From Candidatus Nomurabacteria bacterium (GTDB lineage Bacteria; Patescibacteriota; Minisyncoccia; Phycocordibacterales; UBA9973), in contig JAPLXP010000004.1 of assembly GCA_026396015.1 (NCBI GenBank), forward strand, positions 1,546 to 65,545: DNA of 64,000 nucleotides. The letters are read 5' to 3'. Of the stretch, positions 367 through 64,000 are shown piece after piece; the first letter of the stretch is position 1, and the number at the start of each line of letters is the position of its first letter. A program made the translations under genes and the position numbers. The notes beneath the pieces are model-generated. The model was not told the DNA's origin, made no database searches, and saw nothing but the letters and a program-made list of their open reading frames with translations.

Positions 367-413
367 ATATAGACATACTACCAAAAAAGCCATATATTTG
401 CTATATTCTAAAA

Positions 414-24487: not shown

Positions 24488-25150
24488 AGTATCAATAGTG
24501 TATGAAAATGAAGCTGTGGATGAATTGCCTGCTAGATCACAAGCACGGACATATATAGTCTGTGAACTTGATACTGAAATATTTGTTGAGTATAAAGTTC
24601 CAGATGAACAGTCTGCTGGAGCACCAGATGTAGAGTATCTAATTGAATCAGAACCAGATAGCTAGGTCACATGCGAGTGTGTAGATAGTCTGTGAAGTAG
24701 ATACAGATATTGCTCCTGTGTATAGAGTGCCACTACTACAATTTGCTGGTGTACCAGATGTAGAGTATCGAATTGAATCTGAACCTGAAGCAGATAATGT
24801 GATTGATTGAGTTGAATTGTAATATCCAGCTATAGGACTAGCCACAGCCGCAGATGGTGGAGTCGTATCTATTGTATAAGCAAAAGAGGCAATCGTAGAA
24901 TTATTTGAAATATCACAAGCACGTACATATATTGTTTGTGAACTTGATACAGATATTGCACCATTATATAGCGTACCACTACTACAATCTGCAGGATAAC
25001 CACTATTTATTGAATACCGAATAAAACTACTACCAGTGGCAGATAATGACACAGATTGAGTTCCATTATAAATACCAGCAGGTACGGACGATACTGGATC
25101 AGGACATCCAGCCGTGTGAAAAGTATTATCTCCAGATACAGTATTATTCC
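22380..25150 (-). repeat. tandem ~240-bp coding repeats (CHB_HEX_C-like units), 85-100% nucleotide identity between units
   Basis: Near-identical blocks, e.g. 24481-24660 matches 22893-23072. Confidence 0.8.
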
Positions 25151-41057: not shown

Positions 41058-42533
41058 TTATTCGATTATGTCTATATCTCTTGCATTTATTGGGTTTTCT
41101 AGGCCCTCATCATGATGCTTGTGATTCTGTATATATCGGATACTGTACACAGCAGACAAGGCCACAATCATGACGGCTATCCATCCAAATACAGGCCATG
41201 ATACACGAGGACCTGCATCCCCCGCACTAGCAGCTATGTCATTTAGATTTATAACATTATTATTTTTTTCTTTTTTACCTAGTGAAATTGTGGGGAACGT
41301 TTTTTCTATATTATTATTTTCTCTTGGTGCAGATTCAATTTTATTATTTATAACTTGTGAAGGATTTTGATCTTTTGCAGGAGTAGGAATATCTATAAAT
41401 GGAAATCCTGCTATGACTTCCCCGCTCGGAGATATGATAGATATATTACTCAAATCATCAAAACTAAATTTTGTCACTCGTGGTGAAATTTTTATTTTCT
41501 TGCCGGACATGATAATAGTACCGTCAGGAATAACAAAAGAATTACTTTTGCCTCTCAAAACCCAATTCGACAATGTCGTCTCGTAGCTAGACTTATTTTC
41601 CAATTCAATATATGGATCAGTGGCCGTACCCACAGAAGATATGACGACGCTCGCAGGTATTACCTTTATGATCATCTTGTCTGTGGCATCAATATTGCTA
41701 CCATAATAATTCTGAAAATAAGATAGTGTCATAAGATACTCCCCAGGGTAGTCATATCGATACAAGAATGAGCTATTCTGATTTGGTATTTCTCGAGACA
41801 TACCATCCCCAAAATTCCAGATGAATCTACCATATGAAAGATTCTCCTTGCTGTATCCAGTAGTCTTTTGGTCAACCTTAAAATCAATCCCTGAGATTAC
41901 TACATTTTTAGATATTATCTCTGTACTTATCTTTGGTGGTGCTACCTCTTTTTTGGGAACAATTACAGAGCTACTAGAAGAACTAAATGACGAGCCACCA
42001 CCAGAACCTGAAGAAACCTGATTCTGATTTGATACATCAGGCACAGTAGCAAGTCCAGGAGTAGGTAATGAGGCAACCCACGAAGAACCTGATTTCTGTA
42101 AAGAATTTCCATCTTCACTGGCGCCGAGAGATGAAACATAAGCCACGCTATCTATTGTAGTGCCATCATTTATGAGTGACACATTGCCGCTGTCCTTATC
42201 CAATACCATCACAGTATCTATAGCTGTACCAGGAAAACTAGCATGGTCAGCCAGAAAAGTATTCTTGTCCCCCGTTAGGATAAAGTAAGACTGGGCAGGC
42301 ACAGAGAAATCAACTTTGTTGTTCAGATAGTGTGAGGCACCATCATTGAATCGCCACTTGAGCGCATCTATAGATGCAGGAGCAGATCCATTGTTGTAAA
42401 CTTCAATCCATTGATGATTCGTATTCGCACCTTTTGGGTCATACATTATCTCAGTAATCTCAAGTGAGGCCGATACTATGTATGGTACACAAAATACAAT
42501 AAACAAACCAAAACAGATTAAAATTCTTTTCAT
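41058..42533 (-). CDS. secreted lamin-tail-domain (LTD) protein with C-terminal membrane anchor
   Basis: Signal peptide, ITEIMYDPKG..QWIEVYNNG LTD motif, and a C-terminal transmembrane segment. Confidence 0.55.
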   Translation of the reverse strand: MKRILICFGLFIVFCVPYIVSASLEITEIMYDPKGANTNHQWIEVYNNGSAPASIDALKWRFNDGASHYLNNKVDFSVPAQSYFILTGDKNTFLADHASFPGTAIDTVMVLDKDSGNVSLINDGTTIDSVAYVSSLGASEDGNSLQKSGSSWVASLPTPGLATVPDVSNQNQVSSGSGGGSSFSSSSSSVIVPKKEVAPPKISTEIISKNVVISGIDFKVDQKTTGYSKENLSYGRFIWNFGDGMSREIPNQNSSFLYRYDYPGEYLMTLSYFQNYYGSNIDATDKMIIKVIPASVVISSVGTATDPYIELENKSSYETTLSNWVLRGKSNSFVIPDGTIIMSGKKIKISPRVTKFSFDDLSNISIISPSGEVIAGFPFIDIPTPAKDQNPSQVINNKIESAPRENNNIEKTFPTISLGKKEKNNNVINLNDIAASAGDAGPRVSWPVFGWIAVMIVALSAVYSIRYIQNHKHHDEGLENPINARDIDIIE

Positions 42534-42574: not shown

Positions 42575-44938
42575 TTATTCTAATATTTTTTTCAATACTT
42601 CCTCGGGTACTTCTTTTGATGGGACACGCTTCTGCCAGGAGTCATTTTGATTCACTACAGGATCTGCACTCTGTGTATTATCCACTTCTGTTTTTTCTGG
42701 AGTACTCAAGATTGTTTCAATCTCTTTTTCTACAACAGGATTTGGAAATGCTTCTGGAATTTTTTCTATTACTTTTACTTCTTCAGTTGTAACTGGTATT
42801 TCCTTTGGAATATTTTTTACTTCCACTTCTGTTTTAATCTCTTCTACAACAGGAGCAATCAGGGCATCCACTACTTTTACTTCTGGTGCAGTATGCGCAG
42901 GCTCTACTGTAGTCTTTGTGGTTGTAGTTGTCGTAGTTGTAGTAGTCTGTGGTGTAGCCACTTTTGCAAGAAGATCTTTTAGTGCATTTTTATTTTCTTC
43001 AGATGCCTCACGGGTAAGGAGAACGGTCTTGGGCTTTATTGGTGCATTTACTACAGGATTTGAAGAGGCCACCTTGAGCGCAGAAAGAGACATGGGTTTT
43101 TGTTCCACCCGCTTTACCTCTACTACCTCCGGTACTTTTTGAGTATCTAATTTTTCAGACTTTTCATTCTTTATCTTTTCCAATAGACCTCTGAGTAACG
43201 GAGAAGGAGATCCTATTTTTTTAATGAACGGCTTTGGTGTGAATTTTGAATCTGGATTATTTGCGGGTTGACCCTTTTGGTAATTATTTTTTGGAATAAA
43301 TGGTTTACCTGGGACAACTAGTGGAGCAGAATCTTTTTGGGGAATACTCTCCCTATTTGCAGTGAATGCAGTAGTCAGACGTGATCCATCTTGGTTGAAT
43401 TCAATACCCAATGCTGCCAGTGGTGCAGAATTTACAGTATCTTGCTTGAATGCCTTTGGTGTAATGAATCCTTTTGCGGCCTCAAGATTTCCTTCTTTTA
43501 TCTTGAAAAGACACTCCTTACAATAGATTGGTTTCTTTGGGTCTGGCTCGAATGGAACCATTATTTCCTTTCCACAATTTAGACATGTAGCTTTGAATTT
43601 ACCTATAGCTTCAGGGTTGTCTGTAGCCTGGAGTGTACCACTCCAACGCATAATCTCGTTCTCTACTTCTTCACGAGGTTTTGTGTAAAGTGCACGAGAT
43701 GATTCAATGATTTTCTCTTTTACATTATCTGTCAGATCCACCTTGATTGGAGGAAGAGTACTCGCAGAAAATGGACGACTAGTCACCCCGTCGATCATCA
43801 ACTTTAGATATACGTGATAGTTTGGCAGGTTTACTAAATCCTGAGCCATGAATTCTGGCTCGAATTCTTTTTCTAGAAAATCTGCGTCATCAGCACCAAC
43901 ACGGAAGATAATCATCGTACCCACGTTGCCGAATACAGCATCACGAACTTTACTACCATCCTTGTTTTCAAGTTGGGCAGTGTACTGGTGGGCGATTATA
44001 AGATTTAAACGATATTTGCGGGCCTCAGAGAGGATGTTTGCAAATGAGTCTGTAGCAAAATTCTGGAACTCGTCGACATATAGATAAAAGTCTTTACGAT
44101 CATTCTCAGGAATACGCACACGCTCCATAGCAGCGAGCTGAATCTTGGTGATGAGCATTCCTCCGAGCAAAGCAGAGTTGTCTTCTCCGACGCGACCCTT
44201 GGACACGTTCACGAGGAATATTTTTCCTTCATTCATAATATCAAAGATATCGATTGTAGATTTTTGTTGACCGAGGACATTACGGATAATAGAAGTGGAT
44301 AGGAATTGTCCTACCTTGTTTTGAATCGGAGCTATGGCTTCATTTCTGAATTGATCACGCCACTGCTCGTATTCGTGCACCCAAAATGCCTTGACCACTG
44401 GGTCCTTTAGATTGTTCACAATCATCTGACGATAATCCTTGTCCACTAGGATACGAGGAATACCGAGTAGTGTAGTTCCAGGAGTATCGAGCAATGCGAG
44501 AATGGCATTGTTTAGAATGTACTCCATACGACTACTCCATGCATTGGCCCAAATCTTGGTAAAGATTCCCATGAGTCCTGACGCTACGAGGTGCTTGTAT
44601 TTTGGATCGTCGATCTGCAACACATTGAATCCAATATGAAAATCCGTATCAGCCGGATTGAAGTAGATAACATCTTTTACGCGATGCTCTGGGATGAGAC
44701 TGAGAATTTCCTCGACGAGCTCGCCGTGTGGATCCACCACGCAGACACCCTCGCCATTTTGAATATTCTGCACGATTAGATTCGAAAGGAGTACTGATTT
44801 ACCAGTACCAGATTTTCCCAGCACATACATATGCTGACGGCGGTCTTTTCTCTTTATACCAAAAACATTCCCGGTATTACGAAAGTTTGTCTTACCAAAA
44901 TATGTAATATCTCGATTGTGTGGGATTCCTGTATCCAT
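42575..44938 (-). CDS. TraG/VirD4-like P-loop ATPase (T4 coupling-protein superfamily) with long low-complexity C-terminus and CxxC..CxxC zinc ribbon
   Basis: Walker A (GKSGTGKS), VVDPHGE, and Walker B (YLYVDEFQN). No N-terminal transmembrane segment. C-terminal T-run and acidic tail, with CLNCGKEI..YCKECL. Confidence 0.6.
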   Translation of the reverse strand: MDTGIPHNRDITYFGKTNFRNTGNVFGIKRKDRRQHMYVLGKSGTGKSVLLSNLIVQNIQNGEGVCVVDPHGELVEEILSLIPEHRVKDVIYFNPADTDFHIGFNVLQIDDPKYKHLVASGLMGIFTKIWANAWSSRMEYILNNAILALLDTPGTTLLGIPRILVDKDYRQMIVNNLKDPVVKAFWVHEYEQWRDQFRNEAIAPIQNKVGQFLSTSIIRNVLGQQKSTIDIFDIMNEGKIFLVNVSKGRVGEDNSALLGGMLITKIQLAAMERVRIPENDRKDFYLYVDEFQNFATDSFANILSEARKYRLNLIIAHQYTAQLENKDGSKVRDAVFGNVGTMIIFRVGADDADFLEKEFEPEFMAQDLVNLPNYHVYLKLMIDGVTSRPFSASTLPPIKVDLTDNVKEKIIESSRALYTKPREEVENEIMRWSGTLQATDNPEAIGKFKATCLNCGKEIMVPFEPDPKKPIYCKECLFKIKEGNLEAAKGFITPKAFKQDTVNSAPLAALGIEFNQDGSRLTTAFTANRESIPQKDSAPLVVPGKPFIPKNNYQKGQPANNPDSKFTPKPFIKKIGSPSPLLRGLLEKIKNEKSEKLDTQKVPEVVEVKRVEQKPMSLSALKVASSNPVVNAPIKPKTVLLTREASEENKNALKDLLAKVATPQTTTTTTTTTTKTTVEPAHTAPEVKVVDALIAPVVEEIKTEVEVKNIPKEIPVTTEEVKVIEKIPEAFPNPVVEKEIETILSTPEKTEVDNTQSADPVVNQNDSWQKRVPSKEVPEEVLKKILE

Positions 44939-45221
44939 GTTGGTTTTATTATAACATATATGATAGAATCAAAACACTAAATTTATACTCTGATACATAA
45001 AGCTATATATCAGCAAAATAAACAATTTGTTCATTTAAAAAATCAATACGAAATATGAGAAAAATCATCTTAAATCCATTTAAATGGTTCGGCATCTGGG
45101 TTGTTGTCTGCTTATTAATTTTTGTATATATTCTATATTGGATTATATCAAAAATATTTAGAATCAAAACAAAAGAGCAGGCCTACACCGGTTGGGCAAA
45201 TCAAAAGTGTTTTAGTTAACT

Positions 45222-45250
45222 AAAAAAGGAGCATATGCTCCTTTTTATTT
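45222..45250. terminator. terminator hairpin
   Basis: GGAGCATATGCTCC followed by a T-run. Confidence 0.6.
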
Positions 45251-45555
45251 TACCCAAATAATTCTTTTTTCTTTAATTCTAATTTTGAGATTATTTCAGG
45301 GTCTGTGACTTTTGAAAATCTTTCAAAAGTTTTCCTCTCGCGCATCACTATCTCTGTAAAATTATCTAAAGATCTGACAAATACCTTCATATGACTACCC
45401 TTTAAAATATCCACTTCATAAAGTGGTTTGTAAAACAAAACTTCACAGTCTTTTTCTGCGTCAAGTCCAAATCCTTCTACCACATATGAGTGATCGTATA
45501 CATCACCCTGATCGTGTTTGAAATGATAATAAAATTCTCCTATTTGTGGTTTCAT
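45250..45555 (-). CDS. DUF1653-like small protein
   Basis: GEFYYHFKHD..YDHSYVVEG..VLFYKPLY pattern. Confidence 0.45.
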   Translation of the reverse strand: MKPQIGEFYYHFKHDQGDVYDHSYVVEGFGLDAEKDCEVLFYKPLYEVDILKGSHMKVFVRSLDNFTEIVMRERKTFERFSKVTDPEIISKLELKKKELFG

Positions 45556-45606
45556 AATATAATTTTATCACTAATTCAAAATATAAATAAATGATACAAT
45601 ACATTA

Positions 45607-46185
45607 ATGATTCCAGACTACATATCATATATCACAATTCCAATAGGACTAATCGGAATATATTTATATATAAAAGAAATAATTCTCGGTAAAACAAGAC
45701 CAAACATAGTCACTTGGATTTTTTGGTCTATAGCACCACTAGTAGGAGTATTTATAAACTACAAAAGTGGAGTATCAATATCATTATTAGCTTCGACATT
45801 TATAGCAGGATTTGGACCACTACTAGTAGTCCTATTTTCAATATTCAATAAAAATTCCTATTACATAATTACTAAATTTGATATTCTCTGTGGTATCTTA
45901 TCTGTACTTTCAATAATACTTTGGATAACCACAAAGAATGTTATACTTTCACTTTCTTTTGCTATATTTGCAGATTTTACAGCAGGACTACCTACAATTA
46001 TTAAATCATGGACTCATAGTGATACAGAGAGTCATGCACCATACTCTATAGGAATACTAAATCAAATAATAACCTTTTTAGTTATTACAGATTTTTCTTA
46101 CATCAACACAGCCTTCCCTATTTATTTTGTAATAGCGAATGGAGTAATAATCCTAGGCATTTATCACAAAAAATTATTCAAATAA
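45607..46185 (+). CDS. hypothetical polytopic membrane protein
   Basis: Six hydrophobic segments. Confidence 0.45.
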   Translation: MIPDYISYITIPIGLIGIYLYIKEIILGKTRPNIVTWIFWSIAPLVGVFINYKSGVSISLLASTFIAGFGPLLVVLFSIFNKNSYYIITKFDILCGILSVLSIILWITTKNVILSLSFAIFADFTAGLPTIIKSWTHSDTESHAPYSIGILNQIITFLVITDFSYINTAFPIYFVIANGVIILGIYHKKLFK

Positions 46186-46208
46186 CACAATATTCCCAAT
46201 TACTAAAA

Positions 46209-46244
46209 ATGACATTCGGACATTCTTGAGAATGTCCGAATGTC
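46209..46244. promoter_or_regulatory. 36-bp perfect palindrome (copy 1 of 3)
   Basis: TGACATTCGGACATTCT TGA GAATGTCCGAATGTCA, 3' of the first Cys-rich gene. Confidence 0.6.
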
Positions 46245-46253
46245 ATTTTTGTT

Positions 46254-47945
46254 TTAGATTACTTCATTCTGATAACATTTTTCACAATATACGATCTCGG
46301 GTCGGTCGGGGGAATAAGATGCCTTGATATCTATTCCACATTCTGCACAATTTCGATCAAAAGATGTAGGTGGCAATGCACGAGAGAATCTTTCCCCTCT
46401 TCTGCAGTCTGAACATTTTCGAGGTATTGATAAATTTAATTTATTCAATATATCTATTTCTCCATCTACGATTTTAAAACATCGTCCGCAATCACATCTC
46501 ACAACGTAATTCAAAATAGTATTTCGATCAGATCTTTTATCTGGCAAATCTTTTGATTCTATATTGTGCACATACTCATTGGGTTGTACTTCTACCCATT
46601 TATATCCAAAATCAATAGCTTGGTCTTTTGTCTTGGGGTAATACACACTTGCAAATGTCTCATTGTATCCAAATGAAGAAGCTTGAAACGGCAAAAATTC
46701 ACCATATTTATATATCCTGCCTTTTGAATCTATATATGGATTCACCTTCATATCCTCTATTATTTTATTTTTCAAGATATCAAAATCCTCTTTTGAATAT
46801 TCTTTATTTAAAATAAAATACGATTTCCTCTTTAAATTTGCACAACCAAATACATTCTTGCAAGAAGATGCATAATAGCAATATTCATGATTCAAACAAT
46901 CAGGATATGAACCAATGGAAAACTTTATATTAGAGGACCCATGCCCAGCAATCAGTGTCTCATAGATGAGCTCTGCTCCACCGCCCCAACATGTATAGTC
47001 ATAGGCATCCTTAGTCTTTTCTACTGAAATCAATTGTACGAATCTAGAATCCTCTGTACTAGTGATCATATATGAGTCTCTGGCATTTTTTGATTCGAAA
47101 ATATATTCCCCGGAGACATTTACATTCAGACTATTCCCATACATTGATTTCACTGGATTCTTCAACCAAAAATCTCTAGCCTCTTTTTTGTAATGCTCAA
47201 AATTTGAATATGACGACAAATCTGCATTTTTAATAAATTCAAAATATTCTTCTTTTGTGTATTGCTCATTATAAATGCAATAAGATTTCTTTCTTAAATT
47301 AATACACCCAAAACAATCATTGCAACCAGAACAATTTTTAGAAAAGTATAAATTTATAGAGTTGTCACATTCATCACAAGATACACAACCAAAGCATTTA
47401 TATATACCTACGCAATCATAACACTTTTCTGATTCACGAATTCGAAAACAATCCGAGCTATCTTTTAAGGTATTCAAAAAATCACAATAAAAAGAATTTT
47501 CTGCATAGTCAGCAAAAAATAAACCATAACAATTATTTAGATGTGAAGAATAATTTGTATACGAGGTATTAATCAAAGAAGAATACAATGTATCCAATGC
47601 CATCATTGGGGTATTGTTTTTAAATTCAATATATTGCTCCAAGAAATTCCTATTTGGATCATAATCCACCCCATACTCTGTACCATCCCAATCATCCGCC
47701 CACCAACATTTTGAGCAGAAAACTTTTTTACCACTATCCTTGTGATACATGGATATTATATTTGAATTACATTTATCACATACCCCCTTGTATAGTGAAT
47801 ATATATTCATAAAAGCCAAACGTCTTTCAAATCGACATGTAGGGCAAAATGTCGGTGATGGAACTTTTATCTTTTCATAGAATGAAAAATCATCTGGTTC
47901 TATGTTGAAATCTTTTTTACAATTTTGGCAGTTACGTGTTTCCAT
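46254..47945 (-). CDS. large Cys-rich multi-zinc-ribbon protein (paralogue 1)
   Basis: Start at METRNCQNCKK, reverse-strand ATG at 47945; the upstream-extended ORF merely translates the palindrome. N-terminal and C-terminal CxxC..CxxC ribbons, with a central C..C.GC.NL..K.YC repeat core. Confidence 0.55.
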   Translation of the reverse strand: METRNCQNCKKDFNIEPDDFSFYEKIKVPSPTFCPTCRFERRLAFMNIYSLYKGVCDKCNSNIISMYHKDSGKKVFCSKCWWADDWDGTEYGVDYDPNRNFLEQYIEFKNNTPMMALDTLYSSLINTSYTNYSSHLNNCYGLFFADYAENSFYCDFLNTLKDSSDCFRIRESEKCYDCVGIYKCFGCVSCDECDNSINLYFSKNCSGCNDCFGCINLRKKSYCIYNEQYTKEEYFEFIKNADLSSYSNFEHYKKEARDFWLKNPVKSMYGNSLNVNVSGEYIFESKNARDSYMITSTEDSRFVQLISVEKTKDAYDYTCWGGGAELIYETLIAGHGSSNIKFSIGSYPDCLNHEYCYYASSCKNVFGCANLKRKSYFILNKEYSKEDFDILKNKIIEDMKVNPYIDSKGRIYKYGEFLPFQASSFGYNETFASVYYPKTKDQAIDFGYKWVEVQPNEYVHNIESKDLPDKRSDRNTILNYVVRCDCGRCFKIVDGEIDILNKLNLSIPRKCSDCRRGERFSRALPPTSFDRNCAECGIDIKASYSPDRPEIVYCEKCYQNEVI

Positions 47946-47957
47946 TTTTTTAATTTT

Positions 47958-47991
47958 GACATTCTCACATTCTGCAGAATACGAGAATGTC
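47958..47991. promoter_or_regulatory. 34-bp palindrome (copy 2), 12 nt upstream of Cys-rich paralogue 1 start
   Basis: GACATTCTCACATTCTGCAGAATACGAGAATGTC. Confidence 0.55.
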
Positions 47992-48000
47992 ATTTTAATT

Positions 48001-49701
48001 TTAAATTACTTCATTTTGATAACATTTTTTACAAAAAATAACAGGTGCACTCTCTAATGTGTAATGCGTCCTAAAATTTATACCACATTTATCACACACC
48101 CTATCTTTTAATGACATATTGTCTACCCATAGATTAAACTTCTTATTTATTCTACAAAAATGACATTCTCTGGGGATTGGCAAATTCATCTTTTTCAAGA
48201 AAGAATATTCCTGCCCTATGATTCTATACCCTTTTGAACACTCTCTGCAAGATATTATCTCTTTCAAAATATCTTCACCTACTTCATTGATATCATCTTT
48301 TAAATCAGACCAATCTAGACTTATACTATGATCATTTGAGTTGTCCTTCTCAAAATTTAAACCATAATCTTTTATATCTTTTTCTGAAAGTTTATTGAAA
48401 AATTGTGCAAGTGTCTTGTTATAAGCAAACGGTGATATTTCCATTGGGAAGAATTCACCGTATTTATATACATGACCCAAACTATTGATATAAGGAACAT
48501 CATTCATCTGAATTTTTATTTTTTCCATCAACTCAAAATATTGGTCTTTACTATACTCTTTATTCAAGATGACGTACTTACCATTGCGTACAGACACTCC
48601 ACCAAAAACATACGATGATCCAAAAACTAATTTTGAATATTCGATATCCATACTCCCAATACCCGTTTCTTGAGTAAACTTTAGGTTTGAGGCATTCTCC
48701 CCAATATTATTCCCTTCATATGAAGAAGAAAGATTTCCTCCCCAGCTTGATATATCATATACATCTCGAACTGGCTTGTTGTACAACATCAAAAGGAATT
48801 TACCATTCTCTACTCCAGTCACGTCATAGCACTCCTTACAATTCTTTGAATCAAAAACATAGCTACCAGTATGATCCACTGACATATCGTCATATGCTGG
48901 CTTTGGTATTTGAGTCTTCCAAAAAATATTAGAATCTTCCTCTAATTTTTTATATCCAGACCATGTATTTATTTTTAAAGATTCTTTTATTTGTAAGTAT
49001 TCCTCTCTAGAATATTGTTGATTAAAAATACAATATTTTTTATTTTTCAAATTAGTACAGCCAATACAATCAGTACAATTATCGCAATCCCTACAGAAAA
49101 AACAATCCAAATTAAATCTAGCATTACCTCTTGTTCCTACACATCCATTACTCTTAAAAATATTCATGCAGTCATAGCATGAATCACAATTCATAACCAT
49201 GGAGCAATCGACAACGTCTTTGTTCCCAGTGACTAGTACACCATAGGCAGAATTCTCGTTGTAGCTAGTCAAAAAAGTCAGGTAACAATTTTTTAAATCT
49301 TGTGCATGATTATTATATGGTGAACCATTTGTAGTACTAGTATTAATAGAAAGACCACATAATGGAGTTGATTTCAATAAACTAGAAAACTGATCAAGGA
49401 AACTTTTTGTTTCATCAAAATCTATACCATAATCTCGCCAATCCCATTTATCACCCCACCAGCATTTTGGGCAGTACACAGTATATTCAGAATCTGGACT
49501 GTACATAGATATAAAATTTTCATTACACAAATCACACTCTCTTTTATATAAATTCAATAGATTCATCCATGCTAGTCTACGGACACGTCTGCAATCCGGG
49601 CAAAAAGTCGGAGCAGGAACACCCATCTTTTTATAAAATGAAAAATCATCAGGTTCGATGTTGAAATCTTTTTTACAATTCTGACAGTTTTTTGTTTCCA
49701 T
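48001..49701 (-). CDS. large Cys-rich multi-zinc-ribbon protein (paralogue 2)
   Basis: METKNCQNCKKDFNIEPDDFSFY... is the same architecture as paralogue 1, with ~40% identity. Confidence 0.55.
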   Translation of the reverse strand: METKNCQNCKKDFNIEPDDFSFYKKMGVPAPTFCPDCRRVRRLAWMNLLNLYKRECDLCNENFISMYSPDSEYTVYCPKCWWGDKWDWRDYGIDFDETKSFLDQFSSLLKSTPLCGLSINTSTTNGSPYNNHAQDLKNCYLTFLTSYNENSAYGVLVTGNKDVVDCSMVMNCDSCYDCMNIFKSNGCVGTRGNARFNLDCFFCRDCDNCTDCIGCTNLKNKKYCIFNQQYSREEYLQIKESLKINTWSGYKKLEEDSNIFWKTQIPKPAYDDMSVDHTGSYVFDSKNCKECYDVTGVENGKFLLMLYNKPVRDVYDISSWGGNLSSSYEGNNIGENASNLKFTQETGIGSMDIEYSKLVFGSSYVFGGVSVRNGKYVILNKEYSKDQYFELMEKIKIQMNDVPYINSLGHVYKYGEFFPMEISPFAYNKTLAQFFNKLSEKDIKDYGLNFEKDNSNDHSISLDWSDLKDDINEVGEDILKEIISCRECSKGYRIIGQEYSFLKKMNLPIPRECHFCRINKKFNLWVDNMSLKDRVCDKCGINFRTHYTLESAPVIFCKKCYQNEVI

Positions 49702-49713
49702 ATTTTAGATTTC

Positions 49714-49747
49714 GACATTCTCACATTCTTGAGAATGTCCGAATGTC
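49714..49747. promoter_or_regulatory. 34-bp palindrome (copy 3), 13 nt upstream of Cys-rich paralogue 2 start
   Basis: GACATTCTCACATTCTTGAGAATGTCCGAATGTC. Confidence 0.55.
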
Positions 49748-49758
49748 ATTTTTTATTT

Positions 49759-51237
49759 TTAGATTAGAGGTTCGGAGGGTTTTTGTTCTACTACATCTAC
49801 ATTACCTTCTGACCCTTCCTCGCCTTTACCTTTTCTCATAATAGCGGCCTTTTCTTGTGCTGATCGTACTATAGTATTTTCCTCCTCTTCAATCAACCTC
49901 TGGGCATCACCCATAGGAATAGCGAATTTATGTCGTGATGAAGCGATAACCTCTGCTCTATATGATGGATGTGTCGGTGGGAGCACGCGAAGAGTCTCGG
50001 CAGAAAATGGGTCATAGCTCTCGCCATCAATAGTCATCTTGATATAGAATTCTCCGACACCTAGATTGATCATGTCTTTGACGTCGAAAATCGGTGCAAA
50101 TTCAGGCTTCAATTTTACAGCATCATCACCTCCTACACGGAAAGAAATAATAGAACCCACGTTACCGAGTACTGCCTGCTGAACCTTTGGCAATAGCTGG
50201 CCTACGTATTGATGCGCCATAGTCAGATTCAGTCCGTACTTGCGAGCCTCGGAAAGAATATTTTCAAATGTATCTGTCACAATATTTTGGAACTCATCGA
50301 CGTACAGATAAAAATCCTTTCTTTCTGAATTGGGAAGTTTTGCACGGGCCATACCAGCCTGCTTGATCTTGGTGATGAACATCGCACCAAAGAATGAAGA
50401 GTTCTCCTCACCTATGCGACCCTTGGAAAGGTTAATCAAAATAATCTTCTGCCCATTCATCAATCTCTCGATATCTATTTTATTTTCTTTTTGTCCAAAA
50501 ATATTGCGGAGCATCGGATCAGACAGGAATTGTCCTAGCTTGTTCACAAGCGGGATGATAGCATCAGTGTCGAATTTTTCGGACCAGTCCGCGAATTCAA
50601 TAGCCCAGAATCTCTTGACCATGTCGTCCTCGATATATTCGACTACTTTTTGACGATAATTTCTGTCTGTCAGCATCGAGATCATCCCACGCATAGTAGC
50701 GTGCGGATAGTCGAGCAGTGCGAGTACTGTAAAGCGAAATACGTGCTCGAGACGTGGAGTCCAGTTCGCACCGAATTGCTTGCGCAATACCTCGATCAAC
50801 CCCTGAGTGAGTTGATGCTTGAAGGTCGGATCCACATTCGATAATGGATTGAATGATGCAGGATATTCTACGTCACCTGGATCTAGAATACACACATCTT
50901 CGATGCGTTCCTTGGGTACGAAATCTAAAATATCATCGATGAACTCTCCGTGCGGATCAATTACACACACACCATAGCCGTAGGCTATATCCTGGCGAAC
51001 CATGAGTTCTTGAATCTTGGACTTACCTACTCCTGATTTACCTATGATATACAGATGGCGGCGGCGATCTACACGCTTGATACCAAAGACGAATTTCTTC
51101 TCTTCCAATGATGCCACATAATTTGTACGGCCGATAAATGACACATCAAGTGGATCATCTTTACCTAGTACTGGTAGATCTGGTGGTGGTGGAGCGTATT
51201 TAACTATTTGAATTTTATTTGGCTTGTTGAAAGACAT
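49759..51237 (-). CDS. TraG/VirD4-like P-loop ATPase (paralogue of 42575..44938, no C-terminal extension)
   Basis: GKSGVGKS, VIDPHGE, and YLYVDEFQN. The ~300-aa core aligns with the 787-aa paralogue. Confidence 0.6.
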   Translation of the reverse strand: MSFNKPNKIQIVKYAPPPPDLPVLGKDDPLDVSFIGRTNYVASLEEKKFVFGIKRVDRRRHLYIIGKSGVGKSKIQELMVRQDIAYGYGVCVIDPHGEFIDDILDFVPKERIEDVCILDPGDVEYPASFNPLSNVDPTFKHQLTQGLIEVLRKQFGANWTPRLEHVFRFTVLALLDYPHATMRGMISMLTDRNYRQKVVEYIEDDMVKRFWAIEFADWSEKFDTDAIIPLVNKLGQFLSDPMLRNIFGQKENKIDIERLMNGQKIILINLSKGRIGEENSSFFGAMFITKIKQAGMARAKLPNSERKDFYLYVDEFQNIVTDTFENILSEARKYGLNLTMAHQYVGQLLPKVQQAVLGNVGSIISFRVGGDDAVKLKPEFAPIFDVKDMINLGVGEFYIKMTIDGESYDPFSAETLRVLPPTHPSYRAEVIASSRHKFAIPMGDAQRLIEEEENTIVRSAQEKAAIMRKGKGEEGSEGNVDVVEQKPSEPLI

Positions 51238-51313
51238 ATATAAATATATTGTAGCAAATTAGTAATAAAAAAAGTACCCCTAATAGAGTACTTTTATTTT
51301 GAGTTTGCAAAAA

Positions 51314-51814
51314 TTACATTTTAACTACCGAAGAAAAAGGTAAAACTTTTTGAAGTCTAATCATCTGTGCTTCATTTAAAAAATCTGCATTAATTTCAAA
51401 TATATGGTAATCCCTAGAATCGAGTTCATTGTCGACACCGGAACCAAAATTTGAAATACGGAATTGACCATGATCAATGACAGCTCTTGATTTATGTGAC
51501 CCCGTCTGTTCTTGAAAATCTTCCATAAAATGACCCAGATGAGTATTGTGCTTTACAAGGATGAATCTCAAAAGTGGTGCATCGTCATCTGACAACATAA
51601 CAATAAATTCTTCTTTCAAATCACAATGATGTGAGATAGAGCTGTCTACTGTATGAAAGATTCCAGCATGAATGTTTGCAGGATAGCTCACAATTCTCAA
51701 ACCTATTCGTTTTTCAGAATTTGCGATAATTGCGTCTTTTAATTCCCTGTGTTCAGGGGTCTTGCCTTCTTTTGAAATAAAGGCAGCAGAAAGTTCAGTT
51801 TTCTTTTTTAGCAT
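51314..51814 (-). CDS. hypothetical protein
   Basis: 166-aa His-rich ORF with a terminator hairpin at 51270-51300. Confidence 0.4.
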   Translation of the reverse strand: MLKKKTELSAAFISKEGKTPEHRELKDAIIANSEKRIGLRIVSYPANIHAGIFHTVDSSISHHCDLKEEFIVMLSDDDAPLLRFILVKHNTHLGHFMEDFQEQTGSHKSRAVIDHGQFRISNFGSGVDNELDSRDYHIFEINADFLNEAQMIRLQKVLPFSSVVKM

Positions 51815-51915: not shown

Positions 51916-53292
51916 ATGGCAAAAAAGAAAAGTATATTTGAAGATGTTCTAGAAGCTCCATCCATAGCACTCGAAAAGACTGCAGAAATGGCTGAAAAAA
52001 TAGAGCACTCAATCACAGATCAGAAAATTATTAAAGGTAGCGGAGATTATTTTAAAAAATTAGGGCCAGGCCTAGTATCTGGGGCAGCAGATGATGATCC
52101 ATCTGGTATCGCCACATATTCACAGACAGGTGCGCAATATGGCACGTCACTACTATGGCTCGCAGCTTGGACATTCCCATTGATGGCTGTAATACAAGAG
52201 ATGTGTGCACGTATTGCACTTGTGACGGGTCGTGGTTTAGCTTCTAATATCAAAAGCAATTATTCAAAGAAAATTCTCTACTTTTGTACAGCCCTCCTAT
52301 TCCTAGCAAACACTTTGAACATCGGAGCTGATCTAGGTGCTATGGCAAAGGCTATCCAGCTAATCTTGCCAATGCTGAATTTTACGTCGCTCATAATCAT
52401 CATCGGACTATTTGGATTATTACTCCAAGTATTCATCCCTTATCAAAAATACGCTGGTTATTTAAAATGGCTATCTATAGCACTGCTATCCTACGTAGCT
52501 ACAGGCATCATCATACATATGGATTGGAGTGTGCTACTGCACGATGCATTCATCCCGAATATGCACTTTGGAAAGAGTGAAATACTACTAGTAGTCGGAA
52601 TACTAGGAACTACAATATCCCCTTACCTATTCTTTTGGGAGACTGGTCAGGAGGTAGAAGAACAAATAGCCGAAGGCAAGACTACAGCACTATCACGAAA
52701 AGGTACAAATGATGAGGAGATCAAAAAAATGCGTATCGATATATGGAGTGGGATGTTCCTCTCAAATATTGTGATGTTCTTTATCATCGCAGTATGTGCT
52801 ACTACATTATTTAAAAATGGAATTACCAATATCGGCACAGCAGCAGACGCAGCGCAAGCTCTAGCACCCCTAGCAGGCCAATGGGCATTCCTATTATTTA
52901 CAATCGGAATCATCGGCACTGGAATGCTAGCAATACCGGTACTCGCAGGATCTACATCATATGCGATATCAGAATGTTTTGGATGGAAGGAGGGGTTATA
53001 CAGAAAGCTCAACGAGGCTCGTGCATTCTACGGAGTTATAATTATATCGACAATATTAGGCATAGCAATAAACTTTATAGGAATAGATCCAATCAAGGCG
53101 CTAATCTACTCTGCGATATTCAACGGAATGGTGGCTCCAGTGATACTATTCTTTATCGTCCGCCTCAGTAGTAACCACAAGATAATGGGTAAATACAAAA
53201 ACTCAAAATTATCAAGTGCTGTTGGGTGGTTCATTATGATCATCATGAAGATAGCATCAGTAGCAGCGATGATATCACTCATATTTGGATAA
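51916..53292 (+). CDS. mntH: NRAMP-family divalent metal transporter
   Basis: GPGLVSGAADDDPSGIATYSQTGAQYG consensus. About 11 transmembrane helices. Confidence 0.85.
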   Translation: MAKKKSIFEDVLEAPSIALEKTAEMAEKIEHSITDQKIIKGSGDYFKKLGPGLVSGAADDDPSGIATYSQTGAQYGTSLLWLAAWTFPLMAVIQEMCARIALVTGRGLASNIKSNYSKKILYFCTALLFLANTLNIGADLGAMAKAIQLILPMLNFTSLIIIIGLFGLLLQVFIPYQKYAGYLKWLSIALLSYVATGIIIHMDWSVLLHDAFIPNMHFGKSEILLVVGILGTTISPYLFFWETGQEVEEQIAEGKTTALSRKGTNDEEIKKMRIDIWSGMFLSNIVMFFIIAVCATTLFKNGITNIGTAADAAQALAPLAGQWAFLLFTIGIIGTGMLAIPVLAGSTSYAISECFGWKEGLYRKLNEARAFYGVIIISTILGIAINFIGIDPIKALIYSAIFNGMVAPVILFFIVRLSSNHKIMGKYKNSKLSSAVGWFIMIIMKIASVAAMISLIFG

Positions 53293-62703: not shown

Positions 62704-64000
62704 TTATTTTAAAATCTTCTTAATTTTATTTTTTGTCTTAGTATCGAGCACTCCTGTCACTGATATTTTATTTGCTTTTTGCCATTCGATAAGTGCCTGT
62801 TTGGTGTCATTACCAAAATAATTGGTAACTCCATTTTTTTTCAATGCTTTAGCTTTTGACCCTTTGTTTTGATCAATCAAAAACTGTTGCAATGTTTTAA
62901 CATCATTATTCTTGGAACCAACCTTTAAATCTTTTTTAATATTTTGTATTTCCGGAGTGTTGTGAACAATCTCTATATTTTTTTCAGGAATAATTTGACT
63001 GGCACCATTTGAAGAATCCATCTTAATAACATTTATAGGATTTATCATTTGCATTGGCGGATGTCCACCAGAATGAACAGGAATACTAATTACATAAGAA
63101 AATGATGAATTAGAAAAATTACCAAAACTATTACAAGCTCTTGCATAAATAGTCTGAGAAGACAGAATATCTATTGGTCCAGAATACAAAGTTCCATCCG
63201 AACAACTGCTCAATGAACCAGTAGCAGAATACCTAATATAATCACTACCAGCAGCAGACAGAGATACTTGTTGTGTCTGATGATAGACACCTTCAGGAAT
63301 AGAAGATGTAATTCCAGACTGTGCATCAGTCAATTCTAAGACGATAAAACCATAAGTATTACCATTATAATTATTATCACTTGTAGTTGATAGCATCAAA
63401 TTACCGTCAGACGGAATAATTGAAGCTGGAGTATTTATGTTTTCTGATTCAATAATTTTTACAGCCTTACCGATAAATTTAGAAGGTAATGTGGTTACAT
63501 CATTATTTGCACTTCTATGGAAATCCATATAAACTAAATCACGATTATTTTGATTATTCCAATATGCAGTTTTACCAATATCATATTGTTTTGGATCAAT
63601 CCATTGACGATACGCATATGCATCATAAGTTACATTATTGATGACACCATTATTTCCAACCATCTGAGGGTAAGTTTTTTGAGTTGTGGCTATTGTCCAA
63701 CAAGGATTTCCTGTAGTAAAACAATTTCTATTCTCAGCAGAAGTAGACCCATAAGGACCATAGCCAAAAGCAAAACCAATATCATAATTACTATCAACAT
63801 TTCTCTTTTTAAAAATAATTTCTCTATTTGGAGGATTATTTATATTATCCACATGAGTACTATCAAAATAAACAGGGCTTACTGGGGCAGAATCAAAAAG
63901 TTGTGTAGATTTAAAATCATAACCACCATTTGTTTTTGTTTTTGGTATATAAAAATAAGTATGATCATAAGCAGGAGTTATAGGTGCATTTGTCTGAATT
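62704..64000 (-). CDS. cell-surface protein with one CHB_HEX_C-like unit and C-terminal PG_binding_1 domain, 5' end beyond window
   Basis: The frame stays open to the window edge (the listed GTG is not necessarily the start). The C-terminal LQQFLI..NGV..FG..T..AL..WQ motif is shared with the giant protein at 21935. Confidence 0.6.
   Translation of the reverse strand, partial: IQTNAPITPAYDHTYFYIPKTKTNGGYDFKSTQLFDSAPVSPVYFDSTHVDNINNPPNREIIFKKRNVDSNYDIGFAFGYGPYGSTSAENRNCFTTGNPCWTIATTQKTYPQMVGNNGVINNVTYDAYAYRQWIDPKQYDIGKTAYWNNQNNRDLVYMDFHRSANNDVTTLPSKFIGKAVKIIESENINTPASIIPSDGNLMLSTTSDNNYNGNTYGFIVLELTDAQSGITSSIPEGVYHQTQQVSLSAAGSDYIRYSATGSLSSCSDGTLYSGPIDILSSQTIYARACNSFGNFSNSSFSYVISIPVHSGGHPPMQMINPINVIKMDSSNGASQIIPEKNIEIVHNTPEIQNIKKDLKVGSKNNDVKTLQQFLIDQNKGSKAKALKKNGVTNYFGNDTKQALIEWQKANKISVTGVLDTKTKNKIKKILK

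What the first reader, a model, noticed from the sequence alone, without database searches (positions are those of the whole stretch)
42575..51237. Unusual gene cluster: two paralogous TraG/VirD4-like ATPases flanking two paralogous ~570-aa cysteine-rich multi-zinc-ribbon proteins
On the minus strand lie two P-loop ATPases carrying VirD4/TrwB-like Walker A, a '(V/I)DPHGE' motif and Walker B 'DEFQN'. They are at 42575-44938 (787 aa) and 49759-51237 (492 aa). Neither has the N-terminal membrane anchor typical of coupling proteins. Between them are a DUF1653-like small protein, a 6-TM membrane protein, and two tandem paralogous Cys-rich proteins at 46254-47945 and 48001-49701. Each Cys-rich protein has:
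- an N-terminal ribbon C.NCKKDFNIEPDDFSFY.K..VP.PTFCP.CR;
- a second ribbon (C.KC..N...CSKCWW);
- a central block with ~10 spaced cysteines (C.DC..C.GC.NL..K.YCI.N.QY..EEY) that is internally duplicated;
- two more C-terminal ribbons ending YCEKCYQNEVI.

The 787-aa ATPase ends in a low-complexity T9/acidic tail and a related CLNCGKEI...YCKECL ribbon. I cannot place the Cys-rich proteins in a described family. The duplicated pairing (ATPase+ribbon protein, twice) suggests a bespoke system, e.g. DNA/nucleoprotein translocation, a conjugation-like or symbiont-attachment apparatus, or a defence module.
Basis: partly seen in the sequence, partly recalled or inferred. Interest (0 to 1): 0.8.

Follow-up and report, generated by a model that had tools for sequence, protein, structure and literature searches.

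The report
Orphan VirD4-like ATPases with zinc-ribbon solenoid proteins
A chromosomal gene cluster of an ultra-small (Parcubacteria/CPR) bacterium pairs two membrane-anchor-less VirD4-like motor ATPases with two members of a very large, undescribed family of zinc-ribbon/beta-solenoid proteins; the pairing recurs across this bacterial group and may explain what its many "orphan" coupling-protein genes do.

Summary
The window comes from a Candidatus Nomurabacteria MAG. All six genes are intact at the stated coordinates. The two ATPases are 46% identical and the two Cys-rich proteins 39% identical.

The Cys-rich proteins belong to an unannotated family with about 4,700 representatives at 50% identity. 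By source and record names it appears confined to Parcubacteria-type Patescibacteria. Its architecture is new: a double zinc ribbon, two homologous 12-residue-coil beta-solenoids, then a second double zinc ribbon (AF2 pLDDT 89; no PDB relative).

Members form tandem arrays of up to 11 ancient, differentiated paralogues. 26 of 80 species-level loci also carry the ATPase, against about 2.5 expected. One of the family's ribbons recurs, outside the family, only in the C-terminal extension of the long ATPases.

The ATPases are not canonical coupling proteins. They have no membrane anchor, and no VirB4 or relaxase was found in the window. Elsewhere their core partner is the 2-TM protein DUF8128, which is fused to the ATPase in SPO1-like Bacillus phages.

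Best reading, at moderate confidence: a translocase motor with zinc-ribbon clients or adaptors. The function is unproven. A defence role and classical conjugation are both unlikely.

The parts
49759..51237 (-). ATPase-B: short-form soluble VirD4/TraD-like P-loop ATPase (492 aa). First gene of the operon ATPase-B-Cys2-Cys1.
   Evidence: Pfam DUF87, TrwB_AAD_bind, T4SS-DNA_transf and TraG-D_C above cut-off. phrog_5156 E 7e-52. No TM segment. NCBI name 'type IV secretion system DNA-binding domain-containing protein', MCX6756135.1.
48001..49701 (-). Cys2 (566 aa), subfamily 'D' of the ZnR2-solenoid2-ZnR2 family. N-terminal double ribbon aa 4-83 (nt 49453-49692). Solenoid 1 aa 131-242 (48976-49311). 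Solenoid 2 aa 280-395 (48517-48864). C-terminal double ribbon aa 483-563 (48013-48255).
   Evidence: AF2 pLDDT 89.2, pTM 0.88. Internal homologies by hhalign. More than 4,850 homologues. The D subfamily is typically the first gene after the short ATPase.
46254..47945 (-). Cys1 (563 aa), subfamily 'B' of the same family.
   Evidence: 39% identical to Cys2 over the full length. Sub-threshold zf_Tbcl_2 at the C-terminus. NCBI start at 47945, MCX6756133.1. Subfamily assignment.
46204..46251 (.). Perfect 20-bp-stem palindrome with T/A runs on both sides. Acts as a bidirectional terminator-like hairpin between convergent Cys1 and the PQ-loop gene.
51270..51295 (-). Terminator-like hairpin (11-bp stem) between the 166-aa ORF and ATPase-B. 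Marks the upstream end of the ATPase-B operon.
45607..46185 (+). 7-helix membrane protein with PQ-loop/SWEET-type fold (192 aa). A lineage-restricted neighbour on the opposite strand, probably a small-solute transporter and not a core part.
45250..45555 (-). DUF1653 small protein (101 aa).
   Evidence: PF07866 E 1e-8. Found in only 2 of 87 loci, so linkage is weak.
42575..44938 (-). ATPase-A: long-form paralogue (787 aa). ATPase core aa ~26-434. Zb-type zinc ribbon aa 448-477 (nt 43508-43597). Roughly 300-aa low-complexity tail with a T9 run.
   Evidence: Pfam TrwB_AAD_bind 7.8e-16 and zf_Tbcl_2 1.3e-11. TIGR04272 2e-12. phrog_5156 2.5e-63. Ribbon matched by HMMs built from the Cys family. Members of its 90%-identity cluster range from 764 to 883 aa.
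41058..42533 (-). Lamin-tail-domain + PKD protein with an N-terminal signal/TM and a C-terminal TM. Recurrent gene immediately downstream of long-form ATPases.
   Evidence: Pfam LTD 3.4e-22, PKD. Hydrophobic segments at 4-22 and 444-468. The ATPase-long-LTD pair also occurs in L005, L035, L046, L100, L119, L157 and L163.
51314..51814 (-). 166-aa ORF of unknown function upstream of ATPase-B. Membership in the module is doubtful.
   Evidence: No Pfam, NCBIfam, PADLOC or PHROG hit. No homologue in 86 related loci.
51916..53292 (+). NRAMP divalent-metal transporter. Lies upstream of ATPase-B on the opposite strand, beyond the 166-aa ORF. Synteny is conserved in the closest lineages only.
   Evidence: Pfam Nramp 6.8e-87. 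Same position in L009, L035, L036 and L046.

Best explanation
The locus is a chromosomal, vertically inherited module of Parcubacteria-type Patescibacteria. It combines two things.

First, two paralogous hexamer-type P-loop motors of a distinct VirD4/TraD-like branch of the FtsK-HerA superfamily. I call this the 'DUF8128-associated' clade. Its members have no membrane anchor of their own.

Second, two members of a large family of cytoplasmic zinc proteins. Each is built as double Zn ribbon, beta-solenoid, beta-solenoid, double Zn ribbon.

Proposed mechanism:
- The ATPase is probably held at the membrane by separately encoded TM partners, DUF8128 and a 1-TM protein. Neither is in this window.
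- It engages the Cys-rich proteins through their conserved terminal ribbon modules. One of these ribbons is also carried by the long ATPase itself.
- It spends ATP to translocate them, to load or unload them, or to use them as substrate-selecting adaptors. The differentiated paralogues would provide different specificities.

Shown:
- gene content, paralogy, architecture and zinc-ribbon signatures;
- operon structure;
- conserved and statistically enriched linkage;
- a ribbon domain shared between the two families;
- the DUF8128-ATPase fusion in phages.

Inferred:
- physical interaction between ATPase and Cys-rich proteins;
- the client or adaptor role;
- membrane docking;
- the nature of what is moved (protein or nucleic acid).
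For: - ATPase identity and absence of an anchor.
- Operon ATPase-B-Cys2-Cys1: gaps of 55-57 nt, bracketed by hairpins.
- Linkage from the Cys side: 26 of 80 species-level loci hold the ATPase, 21 within two genes, against about 2.5 expected (binomial P 2e-19).
- Linkage from the ATPase side: 11 of 15 loci of at least 8 kb anchored on close relatives carry the family.
- Adjacency survives in three different flanking contexts (SecDF-...-DUF8128, dnaK...dnaJ, NRAMP...LTD). This argues against mere residual synteny.
- HMMs of the Zb ribbon built from the Cys family hit, among about 3,000 genes in 166 loci, only long-form ATPases outside the family: 30 proteins, plus one 182-aa ATPase fragment.
- Paralogues are ancient and differentiated. 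Best identity within a locus is 43%, against 59% across genomes, and 93% have a closer relative in another genome.
- DUF8128 has 2 TM helices and c6 has 1 TM helix.
- The soluble domain of DUF8128 is fused N-terminally to the ATPase in SPO1-like phages (phrog_5156; hhalign prob 99.4, E 1e-21).
- The CxxC-x17-CxxC domain binds zinc experimentally (PMC12704099).
- Patescibacterial T4CP homologues are known to be mostly unlinked to virB4 and of unexplained function (PMC12102498).
Against: - 54 of 80 Cys-family loci have no ATPase within about 10 kb. These include long arrays and a conserved single-copy site between a pseudouridine synthase gene and rplS.
- More distant ATPase relatives keep DUF8128 and the HTH protein, but only 5 of 40 have the Cys-rich family.
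- There is no DUF8128 in this window.
- I found no complementarity between ribbon-bearing ATPases and Cys-gene adjacency (Fisher p 0.23).
- No interaction was modelled or measured.
- The proteins have no signal peptide and no recognisable secretion signal.
Confidence: 0.4

Rival explanations
1. DNA-handling machine. The ATPases pump DNA (uptake, export or segregation). The Cys-rich proteins are nucleic-acid-binding accessory factors that use their four zinc ribbons and Arg-rich helices to bind or pilot the DNA.
For: - The closest annotated relatives are DNA translocases: TraD/VirD4, CedD and HerA.
- The conserved upstream partner is a Sigma70_r4+HARE-HTH DNA-binding protein.
- The phage fusion protein lies between ParM-like and 'plasmid replication-relaxation' genes.
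- Long ATPases are followed by an extracellular lamin-tail-domain protein. That domain is predicted by others to bind extracellular DNA or polysaccharide.
- R38, R41/R42 and R517 after the zinc knuckles are conserved, and the C-terminal ribbon pair is basic.
Against: - The family is overall acidic to neutral (median pI 6.3; Cys1 and Cys2 are 5.5).
- Up to 11 differentiated paralogues per array is unusual for a DNA-binding cofactor.
- No recognised nucleic-acid-binding domain scores above threshold.
- No nuclease, relaxase or ComEC is adjacent in the window.
Confidence: 0.22
2. Neighbours without a joint mechanism. The Cys-rich proteins are autonomous cytoplasmic zinc/metal-binding or scaffold (polymer-forming beta-solenoid) proteins, and their proximity to the ATPase is inherited synteny.
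For: - Most family loci lack the ATPase (54 of 80).
- There is a conserved ATPase-free site next to rluA-type and rplS genes.
- Each protein has 32-36 Cys, with CxxC ladders in 12-residue coils.
- Recurrent neighbours include CutA1, NRAMP and DnaJ.
Against: - Tenfold enrichment of the ATPase near the family.
- Adjacency is retained across rearranged contexts.
- Co-transcription signals in the window.
- A ribbon is shared exclusively with long ATPases.
- Central Cys positions are only 30-86% conserved, so a metal-storage role is not a family-wide constraint.
Confidence: 0.2
3. Classical type IV secretion or conjugation. The ATPases are coupling proteins that feed the patescibacterial VirB4-type T4SS encoded elsewhere. 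The Cys-rich proteins are its effectors.
For: - Pfam T4CP domains and the NCBI annotation.
- Patescibacteria encode a T4SS essential for epibiotic growth in Saccharimonadia (PMC12102498, PMC12857230).
- The basic C-terminal module of the Cys-rich proteins resembles positively charged T4SS signals. This last point is my own inference.
Against: - No N-terminal TM anchor.
- Scores are far below the curated TraD/VirD4 equivalog cut-offs, for example 53 against 366 bits.
- No VirB4, relaxase or other T4SS gene was found among the window ORFs scanned.
- Only 148 of 5,713 T4CP homologues lie near virB4, and the T4CP gene is non-essential where the T4SS is essential (PMC12102498).
Confidence: 0.08
4. 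Anti-phage defence module: a HerA/mad8-like ATPase with zinc-finger sensors or effectors.
For: Weak PADLOC hits of both ATPases to mad8 (1.4e-16 and 2e-10) and to HerA models.
Against: - No other MADS, HerA-partner or effector gene was found, and the Cys-rich proteins have no PADLOC hit.
- The genes sit among housekeeping genes: murA, murB, ddl, uvrA, tRNA synthetases.
- Paralogues are ancient orthologous lineages rather than a patchy, fast-turnover island.
- No nuclease or toxin domain is present.
Confidence: 0.04

Closest known systems
Type IV coupling proteins (VirD4 / TrwB / TraD / TraG)
   Same: Same P-loop NTPase branch. Has Walker A, DPHGE and DEFQN motifs. Pfam TrwB_AAD_bind, T4SS-DNA_transf and TraG-D_C all score above their gathering cut-offs. 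May likewise couple selected substrates to a membrane channel.
   Different: No N-terminal transmembrane domain. Far below curated equivalog cut-offs. No VirB4 or relaxase context (PMC12102498). Two paralogues per locus, one with a zinc ribbon plus a disordered tail. The membrane element is apparently supplied in trans by DUF8128.
phrog_5156 proteins of SPO1-like Bacillus phages and phage G (e.g. CampHawk_129, gp156), function unknown
   Same: By far the strongest profile match of both ATPases (215 and 178 bits). The N-terminal half of these proteins is homologous to the soluble domain of DUF8128, the ATPase's usual patescibacterial neighbour.
   Different: In phages the two parts form one polypeptide without TM helices. 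The gene sits among ParM-like and replication-relaxation genes. No Cys-rich family member was found in phage collections.
Type VII secretion (EccC/EssC FtsK-like ATPase with tandem arrays of paralogous substrates). Analogy only, from general knowledge.
   Same: An FtsK-superfamily ATPase is encoded next to arrays of paralogous, signal-peptide-less proteins in a monoderm.
   Different: No homology beyond the P-loop fold. No WXG100/LXG-type substrates and no EccB/D/E-type genes were seen. Secretion of the Cys-rich proteins is unproven.
Narrow beta-solenoids: Tenebrio antifreeze protein, ryegrass ice-binding protein, CsgA curli, bactofilin, left-handed beta-helix acyltransferases
   Different: Only generic fold resemblance. 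Foldseek gives nothing at E<1e-3 and TM<0.1. No sequence relation. Here two solenoids are capped by helices and flanked by four zinc ribbons in one rigid 566-aa body (pTM 0.88).
CxxC-x17-CxxC (TIGR04272 / PF23477 zf_Tbcl_2) zinc-binding domain, e.g. Methanosarcina mazei small proteins
   Same: The ATPase-A ribbon passes both curated cut-offs. The second and fourth ribbons of the Cys-rich proteins are of this type. Zinc binding of the domain was shown by ICP-MS (PMC12704099).
   Different: There the domain is a stand-alone small protein of unknown role. Here it is one of four ribbons in a large multidomain protein and an appendage of an ATPase.

Membership tests
Type IV coupling protein (VirD4/TraG/TrwB) | FtsK/HerA-type nucleotide-binding domain matching T4CP profiles | tested here: met
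   ATPase-A: TrwB_AAD_bind 58.4 bits (cut-off 20.5), T4SS-DNA_transf 37.2 (20.1), TraG-D_C 35.9 (22). ATPase-B also passes all three.
Type IV coupling protein (VirD4/TraG/TrwB) | N-terminal transmembrane anchor | tested here: not met
   No 19-residue window with Kyte-Doolittle mean of 1.6 or more in either ATPase.
Type IV coupling protein (VirD4/TraG/TrwB) | Encoded with VirB4/mating-pair-formation genes and/or a relaxase | tested here: not met
   No such domain in the 38 window ORFs scanned, which cover all ORFs of 300 aa or more. Literature: 148 of 5,713 patescibacterial T4CP homologues lie near virB4 (PMC12102498).
Type IV coupling protein (VirD4/TraG/TrwB) | Reaches curated equivalog/subfamily scores (NCBIfam TraD, CD1115 VirD4-like) | tested here: not met
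   Best scores are 53.3 bits against a cut-off of 366 (SXT_TraD) and 52.4 against 250 (CD1115).
DUF8128-associated ATPase clade (phrog_5156-like) | Strong full-length match of the ATPase core to phrog_5156 | tested here: met
   E 2.5e-63 for ATPase-A and 7.3e-52 for ATPase-B, over profile positions ~390-817 of 824.
DUF8128-associated ATPase clade (phrog_5156-like) | DUF8128 encoded immediately upstream, or fused | tested here: not met
   Not in this window. Met in relatives: the DUF8128-(c6)-ATPase string recurs, and the fusion in phage CampHawk_129 gives hhalign prob 99.4.
HerA (DUF87) helicases | DUF87 central domain above the Pfam cut-off | tested here: met
   36.2 and 35.2 bits against a cut-off of 23.2. 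NCBIfam and PADLOC HerA models score only weakly. The HAS-barrel and a NurA partner were not examined.
zf_Tbcl_2 / CxxC-x17-CxxC zinc ribbon | Profile match above curated cut-off | tested here: met
   Met for ATPase-A: 44.4 bits against 27, and TIGR04272 46.6 against 36. Cys1 is below cut-off (23.1 against 27) and Cys2 is not detected. Their ribbons 2 and 4 are nevertheless homologous to each other (E 3e-15) and to the ATPase ribbon.
Known anti-phage defence systems (PADLOC) | Complete set of system proteins in the neighbourhood | tested here: not met
   Only the ATPases hit (mad8, HerA). The Cys-rich proteins, DUF1653, the PQ-loop protein and the 166-aa ORF have no hit.
Characterised beta-solenoid families (antifreeze, LbH acyltransferase, bactofilin, curli) | Significant structural or sequence match of the central domain | tested here: inconclusive
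PQ-loop / SWEET / KDEL-receptor fold (for the 192-aa membrane protein) | Seven-helix 3+1+3 fold match | tested here: met

The most novel reading that the evidence does not exclude
The DUF8128-type ATPases, their small TM partners and the arrays of ZnR2-solenoid2-ZnR2 proteins together form a previously unrecognised translocation system of Parcubacteria. It would be functionally analogous to T7SS or T4SS with effector repertoires. It would place an ancient set of differentiated beta-solenoid zinc proteins at the cell surface or into host cells. This would account for the thousands of 'orphan' coupling-protein genes in Patescibacteria.
Probability: 0.15. Interest if true: 0.9.

Novelty: new variant of a known kind. 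Interest (0 to 1): 0.62.

Why it matters
Patescibacteria carry about two VirD4-like genes per genome. These genes are almost never near a T4SS, and their role is an acknowledged open question (PMC12102498).

This locus and its relatives give those ATPases concrete candidate partners:
- a 2-TM DUF8128 protein, fused to the ATPase in phages;
- a family of thousands of zinc-ribbon/beta-solenoid proteins that can occupy about 20 kb of contigs from Patescibacteria, whose genomes are typically under 1 Mb.

If the link is functional, it defines a lineage-specific molecular machine in organisms whose host-dependent biology is largely unexplained. Independently of function, the Cys-rich family is a sizeable, structurally distinct protein family with no Pfam or NCBIfam model of its own in the copies searched here.

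Tried and rejected
- **PDB searches.** A sequence-profile search of PDB with the family gave only LIM-like noise, E 0.025 or worse. phmmer of ATPase-B against PDB gave nothing.
- **Fold searches.** The afdb50 library was unavailable. Foldseek against PDB gave nothing significant.
- **Segment-wise Pfam.** Relaxed E-values gave only sub-threshold generic zinc-ribbon hits.
- **Phage origin of the Cys-rich family.** No tblastn hit in 50,697 phage records. No relative in IMG/VR. Only a weak phrog_15341 hit, E 5e-5.
- **Ribbon supplied in trans.** I tested whether the neighbouring Cys-rich gene supplies the ribbon when the ATPase lacks one. There was no significant complementarity (Fisher p 0.23).
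- **Recent lineage-specific expansion or antigenic variation.** Rejected, because 93% of paralogues have a closer relative in another genome.
- **Mobile element or defence island.** Rejected on housekeeping context and PADLOC results.
- **Enzymatic role for the Cys-rich proteins.** The conserved polar residues repeat between the two solenoids and look structural. No catalytic signature was seen. This is inference only.
- **Literature.** Searches for the family, DUF8128, or Cys-rich arrays in CPR found no description.

Full report
**What is there**

The window is chromosomal DNA of a Candidatus Nomurabacteria (Parcubacteria/Patescibacteria) MAG. Cys2 is 100% identical to NCBI protein NTX85_02245 on a 66-kb contig, and the other genes match MCX67561xx entries. 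The surrounding genes are housekeeping: TsaD, tRNA synthetases, LepA, MurJ, UvrA/UvrC, alanine racemase, MiaA and five tRNAs. By their translations there are also MurB-, MurA- and Ddl-like genes (read by eye). GC content is unremarkable across the locus.

On the minus strand lie:
- ATPase-B (49759-51237)
- Cys2 (48001-49701)
- Cys1 (46254-47945)
- a DUF1653 protein (45250-45555)
- ATPase-A (42575-44938)
- a lamin-tail-domain/PKD membrane protein (41058-42533)

A 192-aa membrane protein lies on the plus strand at 45607-46185.

**The ATPases**

The two are 46% identical (E 2e-136). They share Walker A, (V/I)DPHGE and YVDEFQN motifs (invariant columns).
- They pass the Pfam cut-offs for TrwB_AAD_bind, T4SS-DNA_transf, TraG-D_C and DUF87.
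- They fall far below every curated NCBIfam TraD/VirD4 threshold.
- They have no hydrophobic segment.
- NCBI calls both 'type IV secretion system DNA-binding domain-containing protein'.
- ATPase-A adds a CxxC-x17-CxxC ribbon (aa 448-477; PF23477 E 1e-11, TIGR04272 E 2e-12) and a ~300-aa low-complexity tail. The length of that tail varies, giving proteins of 764-883 aa among >=90%-identical relatives.
- None of the 38 window ORFs scanned with Pfam shows a VirB4, relaxase or other T4SS domain. That set includes every ORF of 300 aa or more.

This matches a published survey. It found 5,713 VirD4-type T4CP homologues in 2,918 patescibacterial genomes, only 148 of them near virB4. The authors state that exaptation of t4cp 'cannot be ruled out' (PMC12102498).

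**The ATPases' wider context**

I anchored on the ATPase and scanned metagenome contigs. I also clustered all ORFs of the Cys-anchored loci. The most widely conserved string is SecD-SecF-[Sigma70_r4+HARE-HTH protein]-DUF8128-c6-ATPase.
- DUF8128 proteins have two N-terminal TM helices and a ~400-aa soluble domain. c6 has one TM helix.
- Both window ATPases match phrog_5156 far better than any annotated family (E 2.5e-63 and 7e-52). This is a family of unknown function in SPO1-like Bacillus phages and phage G.
- A DUF8128 protein matches the N-terminal part of the same profile.
- A 36-sequence DUF8128 profile aligns to residues 78-381 of CampHawk_129, upstream of its ATPase domain and GTGKT-type P-loop (hhalign prob 99.4, E 1e-21).

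This is a Rosetta-stone fusion. DUF8128 and the ATPase are two parts of one unit, and in Patescibacteria DUF8128 plausibly supplies the missing membrane anchor. In the phage, the fusion gene lies between a ParM-like gene and a 'plasmid replication-relaxation' gene.

This window contains no DUF8128. Here, and in the closest lineages, an NRAMP gene lies upstream of the short ATPase on the opposite strand.

**The Cys-rich proteins**

Cys1 and Cys2 are 39% identical end to end and have 36 and 32 cysteines. They have no TM segment and no N-terminal hydrophobic segment of the kind a signal peptide would need.

Family size and annotation:
- More than 4,850 clusters at 90% identity share words and score E<=1e-3.
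- An exhaustive profile search of 1.84 billion representatives finds 4,723 at E<=1e-3 and 1,940 at E<=1e-30. Most complete hits are 545-600 aa.
- Names from sources are 'hypothetical' or generic zinc-ribbon labels.
- All named organisms are Parcubacteria-type lineages: Nomura-, Jorgensen-, Lipton-, Giovannoni-, Niyogi-, Staskawicz-, Moranii- and Sungiibacteria, and Paceibacterota. A few records carry other labels: 'uncultured Saccharibacteria', Burkholderiales, Gammaproteobacteria and Bdellovibrionales. I did not verify these; they may be mislabelled bins.

Zinc sites: sixteen cysteines in four CxxC...CxxC sets are invariant (C6/9/34/37, C56/59/77/80, C485/488/513/516, C536/539/557/560).

Structure: an AlphaFold2 model of Cys2 is confident (pLDDT 89.2, pTM 0.88). 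It shows two N-terminal ribbons, two beta-solenoid segments each capped by a long helix, and two C-terminal ribbons.

Internal homology (hhalign):
- The N-terminal ribbon pair is homologous to the C-terminal pair (prob 99.8, E 2e-27).
- Solenoid 1 is homologous to solenoid 2 (prob 99.9, E 7e-36).
- The coils have a 12-residue period and partly conserved CxxC ladders (the period is read from the sequence).

Closest known structures and families:
- Foldseek against PDB finds nothing.
- Pfam, NCBIfam and PADLOC give nothing above threshold.
- The zf_Tbcl_2-type ribbon has been shown to bind zinc in Methanosarcina small proteins (PMC12704099).

**Arrays and age of the paralogues**

In 80 species-representative genome loci the family occurs as 1 to 11 copies per ~17-kb stretch. 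Half of the loci have two or more copies. One 621-kb contig has 11 copies within 22 kb, interrupted only by an M17 peptidase gene.

Paralogues within a locus are old:
- Best within-locus identity has a median of 43%, against 59% for the best match in another genome.
- 93% of proteins have their closest relative elsewhere.

The arrays are therefore sets of long-differentiated subfamilies, not recent expansions. Cys2 belongs to the subfamily that usually follows the short ATPase directly. Cys1 belongs to the subfamily that also occupies a conserved ATPase-free site between a pseudouridine-synthase gene and rplS.

**Linkage**

- 26 of the 80 loci contain the ATPase, 21 within two genes of a family member.
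- About 2.5 would be expected if ~2 ATPase genes per 1-Mb genome were placed at random (binomial P 2e-19). The null uses the published copy number and an assumed genome size.
- From the other side, 11 of 15 loci of at least 8 kb anchored on close relatives of ATPase-B (>=65% identity) carry the family. Only 5 of 40 anchored on distant relatives do.
- Adjacency is kept in at least three different surroundings: after SecDF-HTH-DUF8128-c6, between dnaK and dnaJ, and the window type with NRAMP and LTD.
- The exact window layout recurs in L009, L035, L036, L046 and L087.
- Ribbon HMMs built from the Cys family hit, among ~3,000 genes in 166 loci, only long-form ATPases outside the family. That is 30 proteins, plus one 182-aa fragment. 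The first-type ribbon and the solenoids hit nothing else.
- In the window, gaps of 57 and 55 nt separate ATPase-B, Cys2 and Cys1. Terminator-like hairpins at 51295-51270 and 46204-46251 (a perfect 20-bp stem) bracket these three genes. Terminator-like sites are about twice as frequent as in shuffled sequence, while promoter-like sites are not enriched.

**Other genes**

- Its family is small, with 79 hits, and lineage-restricted. The gene is on the opposite strand, so I treat it as a neighbour.
- DUF1653 is confirmed but rarely linked.
- The LTD/PKD protein repeatedly follows long-form ATPases.
- CutA1 (13 loci), a cytidylyltransferase-like protein and M17 peptidase are recurrent array neighbours of unclear meaning.

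**Interpretation**

The best-supported reading is a functional partnership. A VirD4/FtsK-type motor of the DUF8128 clade works on, or through, zinc-ribbon/solenoid proteins that dock by their conserved terminal ribbon modules. The differentiated paralogues would provide specificity. I put this at about 0.4.

The alternatives, in order:
- The substrate that is moved could be DNA, with the Cys-rich proteins as nucleic-acid-binding accessories (0.22). This is supported by the HTH partner, the phage context and the LTD protein. It is weakened by the acidic pI and the number of paralogues.
- The two families could be unrelated neighbours (0.2), since most family loci lack the ATPase.
- Classical T4SS coupling (0.08) and defence (0.04) fit poorly.

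No interaction, localisation or activity has been tested, so function remains inferred.

**Novelty**

The ATPases are a known, though unexplained, kind. Three things were not found described in the literature I could search:
- the Cys-rich family, its architecture and its arrays;
- its link to the orphan T4CP-like ATPases;
- the DUF8128-ATPase fusion.

I rate the finding a new variant of a known kind, an FtsK/VirD4-type motor with cognate partner proteins. There is a modest chance, about 0.15, that it is a new translocation system.

Noticed in passing
L005 and L006, 17311-17707: A bAvd gene followed by a reverse transcriptase (RVT_1), i.e. a diversity-generating-retroelement signature, lies about 6 kb downstream of a three-copy Cys-family array in a Niyogibacteria contig. 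I did not check whether any Cys-family gene is a DGR target.
   Followed up: no
L167 (Bacillus phage CampHawk) 4747-7467, and phage G gp156: SPO1-like Bacillus phages and phage G encode proteins of roughly 900 aa of unknown function. They fuse a DUF8128-like domain to this ATPase type. In CampHawk the gene is flanked by ParM-like and 'plasmid replication-relaxation' genes. This offers a tractable system for finding the ATPase's substrate.
   Followed up: partly
window 42575-43450 (tail of ATPase-A): The low-complexity tail (T9 run, imperfect 9/15-nt repeats at 42908-42957) varies in length among >=90%-identical relatives. Cluster members are 764, 765, 779, 787 and 883 aa.
   Followed up: partly
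window 21935-24487, 24648-25775, 62704-63852: Three large proteins carry multiple chitobiase/beta-hexosaminidase C-terminal (CHB_HEX_C_1), Big_13 and Fn3-associated repeats. Two of them end in a peptidoglycan-binding domain. They are likely surface or cell-wall-associated proteins.
   Followed up: no
window 33616-34461: A 281-aa ORF has a sub-threshold match to ART-PolyVal, the ADP-ribosyltransferase of polyvalent proteins (E 8.5e-5, 23.8 bits against a cut-off of 31.2).
   Followed up: no
window 51916-53292; L009, L035, L036, L046: In the closest lineages an NRAMP divalent-metal transporter lies upstream of the short ATPase on the opposite strand. CutA1, a 'divalent ion tolerance' protein, sits between the ATPase and the first Cys-family gene in 13 other loci. 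This may hint at a metal connection, or it may be coincidence.
   Followed up: partly
L045, L047, L048, L058, L089, L090, L093, L103: In one group of genomes the ATPase-long / Cys-array / ATPase-short block lies between dnaK and dnaJ, genes that are usually adjacent.
   Followed up: partly
window 46204-46251: A perfect 20-bp-stem palindrome (AAAAATGACATTCGGACATTC-TTGA-GAATGTCCGAATGTCATTTTT) lies between the convergent Cys1 and PQ-loop genes. It is unusually long for a terminator.
   Followed up: partly
window 360-1715: The TsaD-family protein is 451 aa, and its Pfam TsaD match begins only at residue 135. It therefore has an N-terminal extension or fusion that I did not characterise.
   Followed up: no
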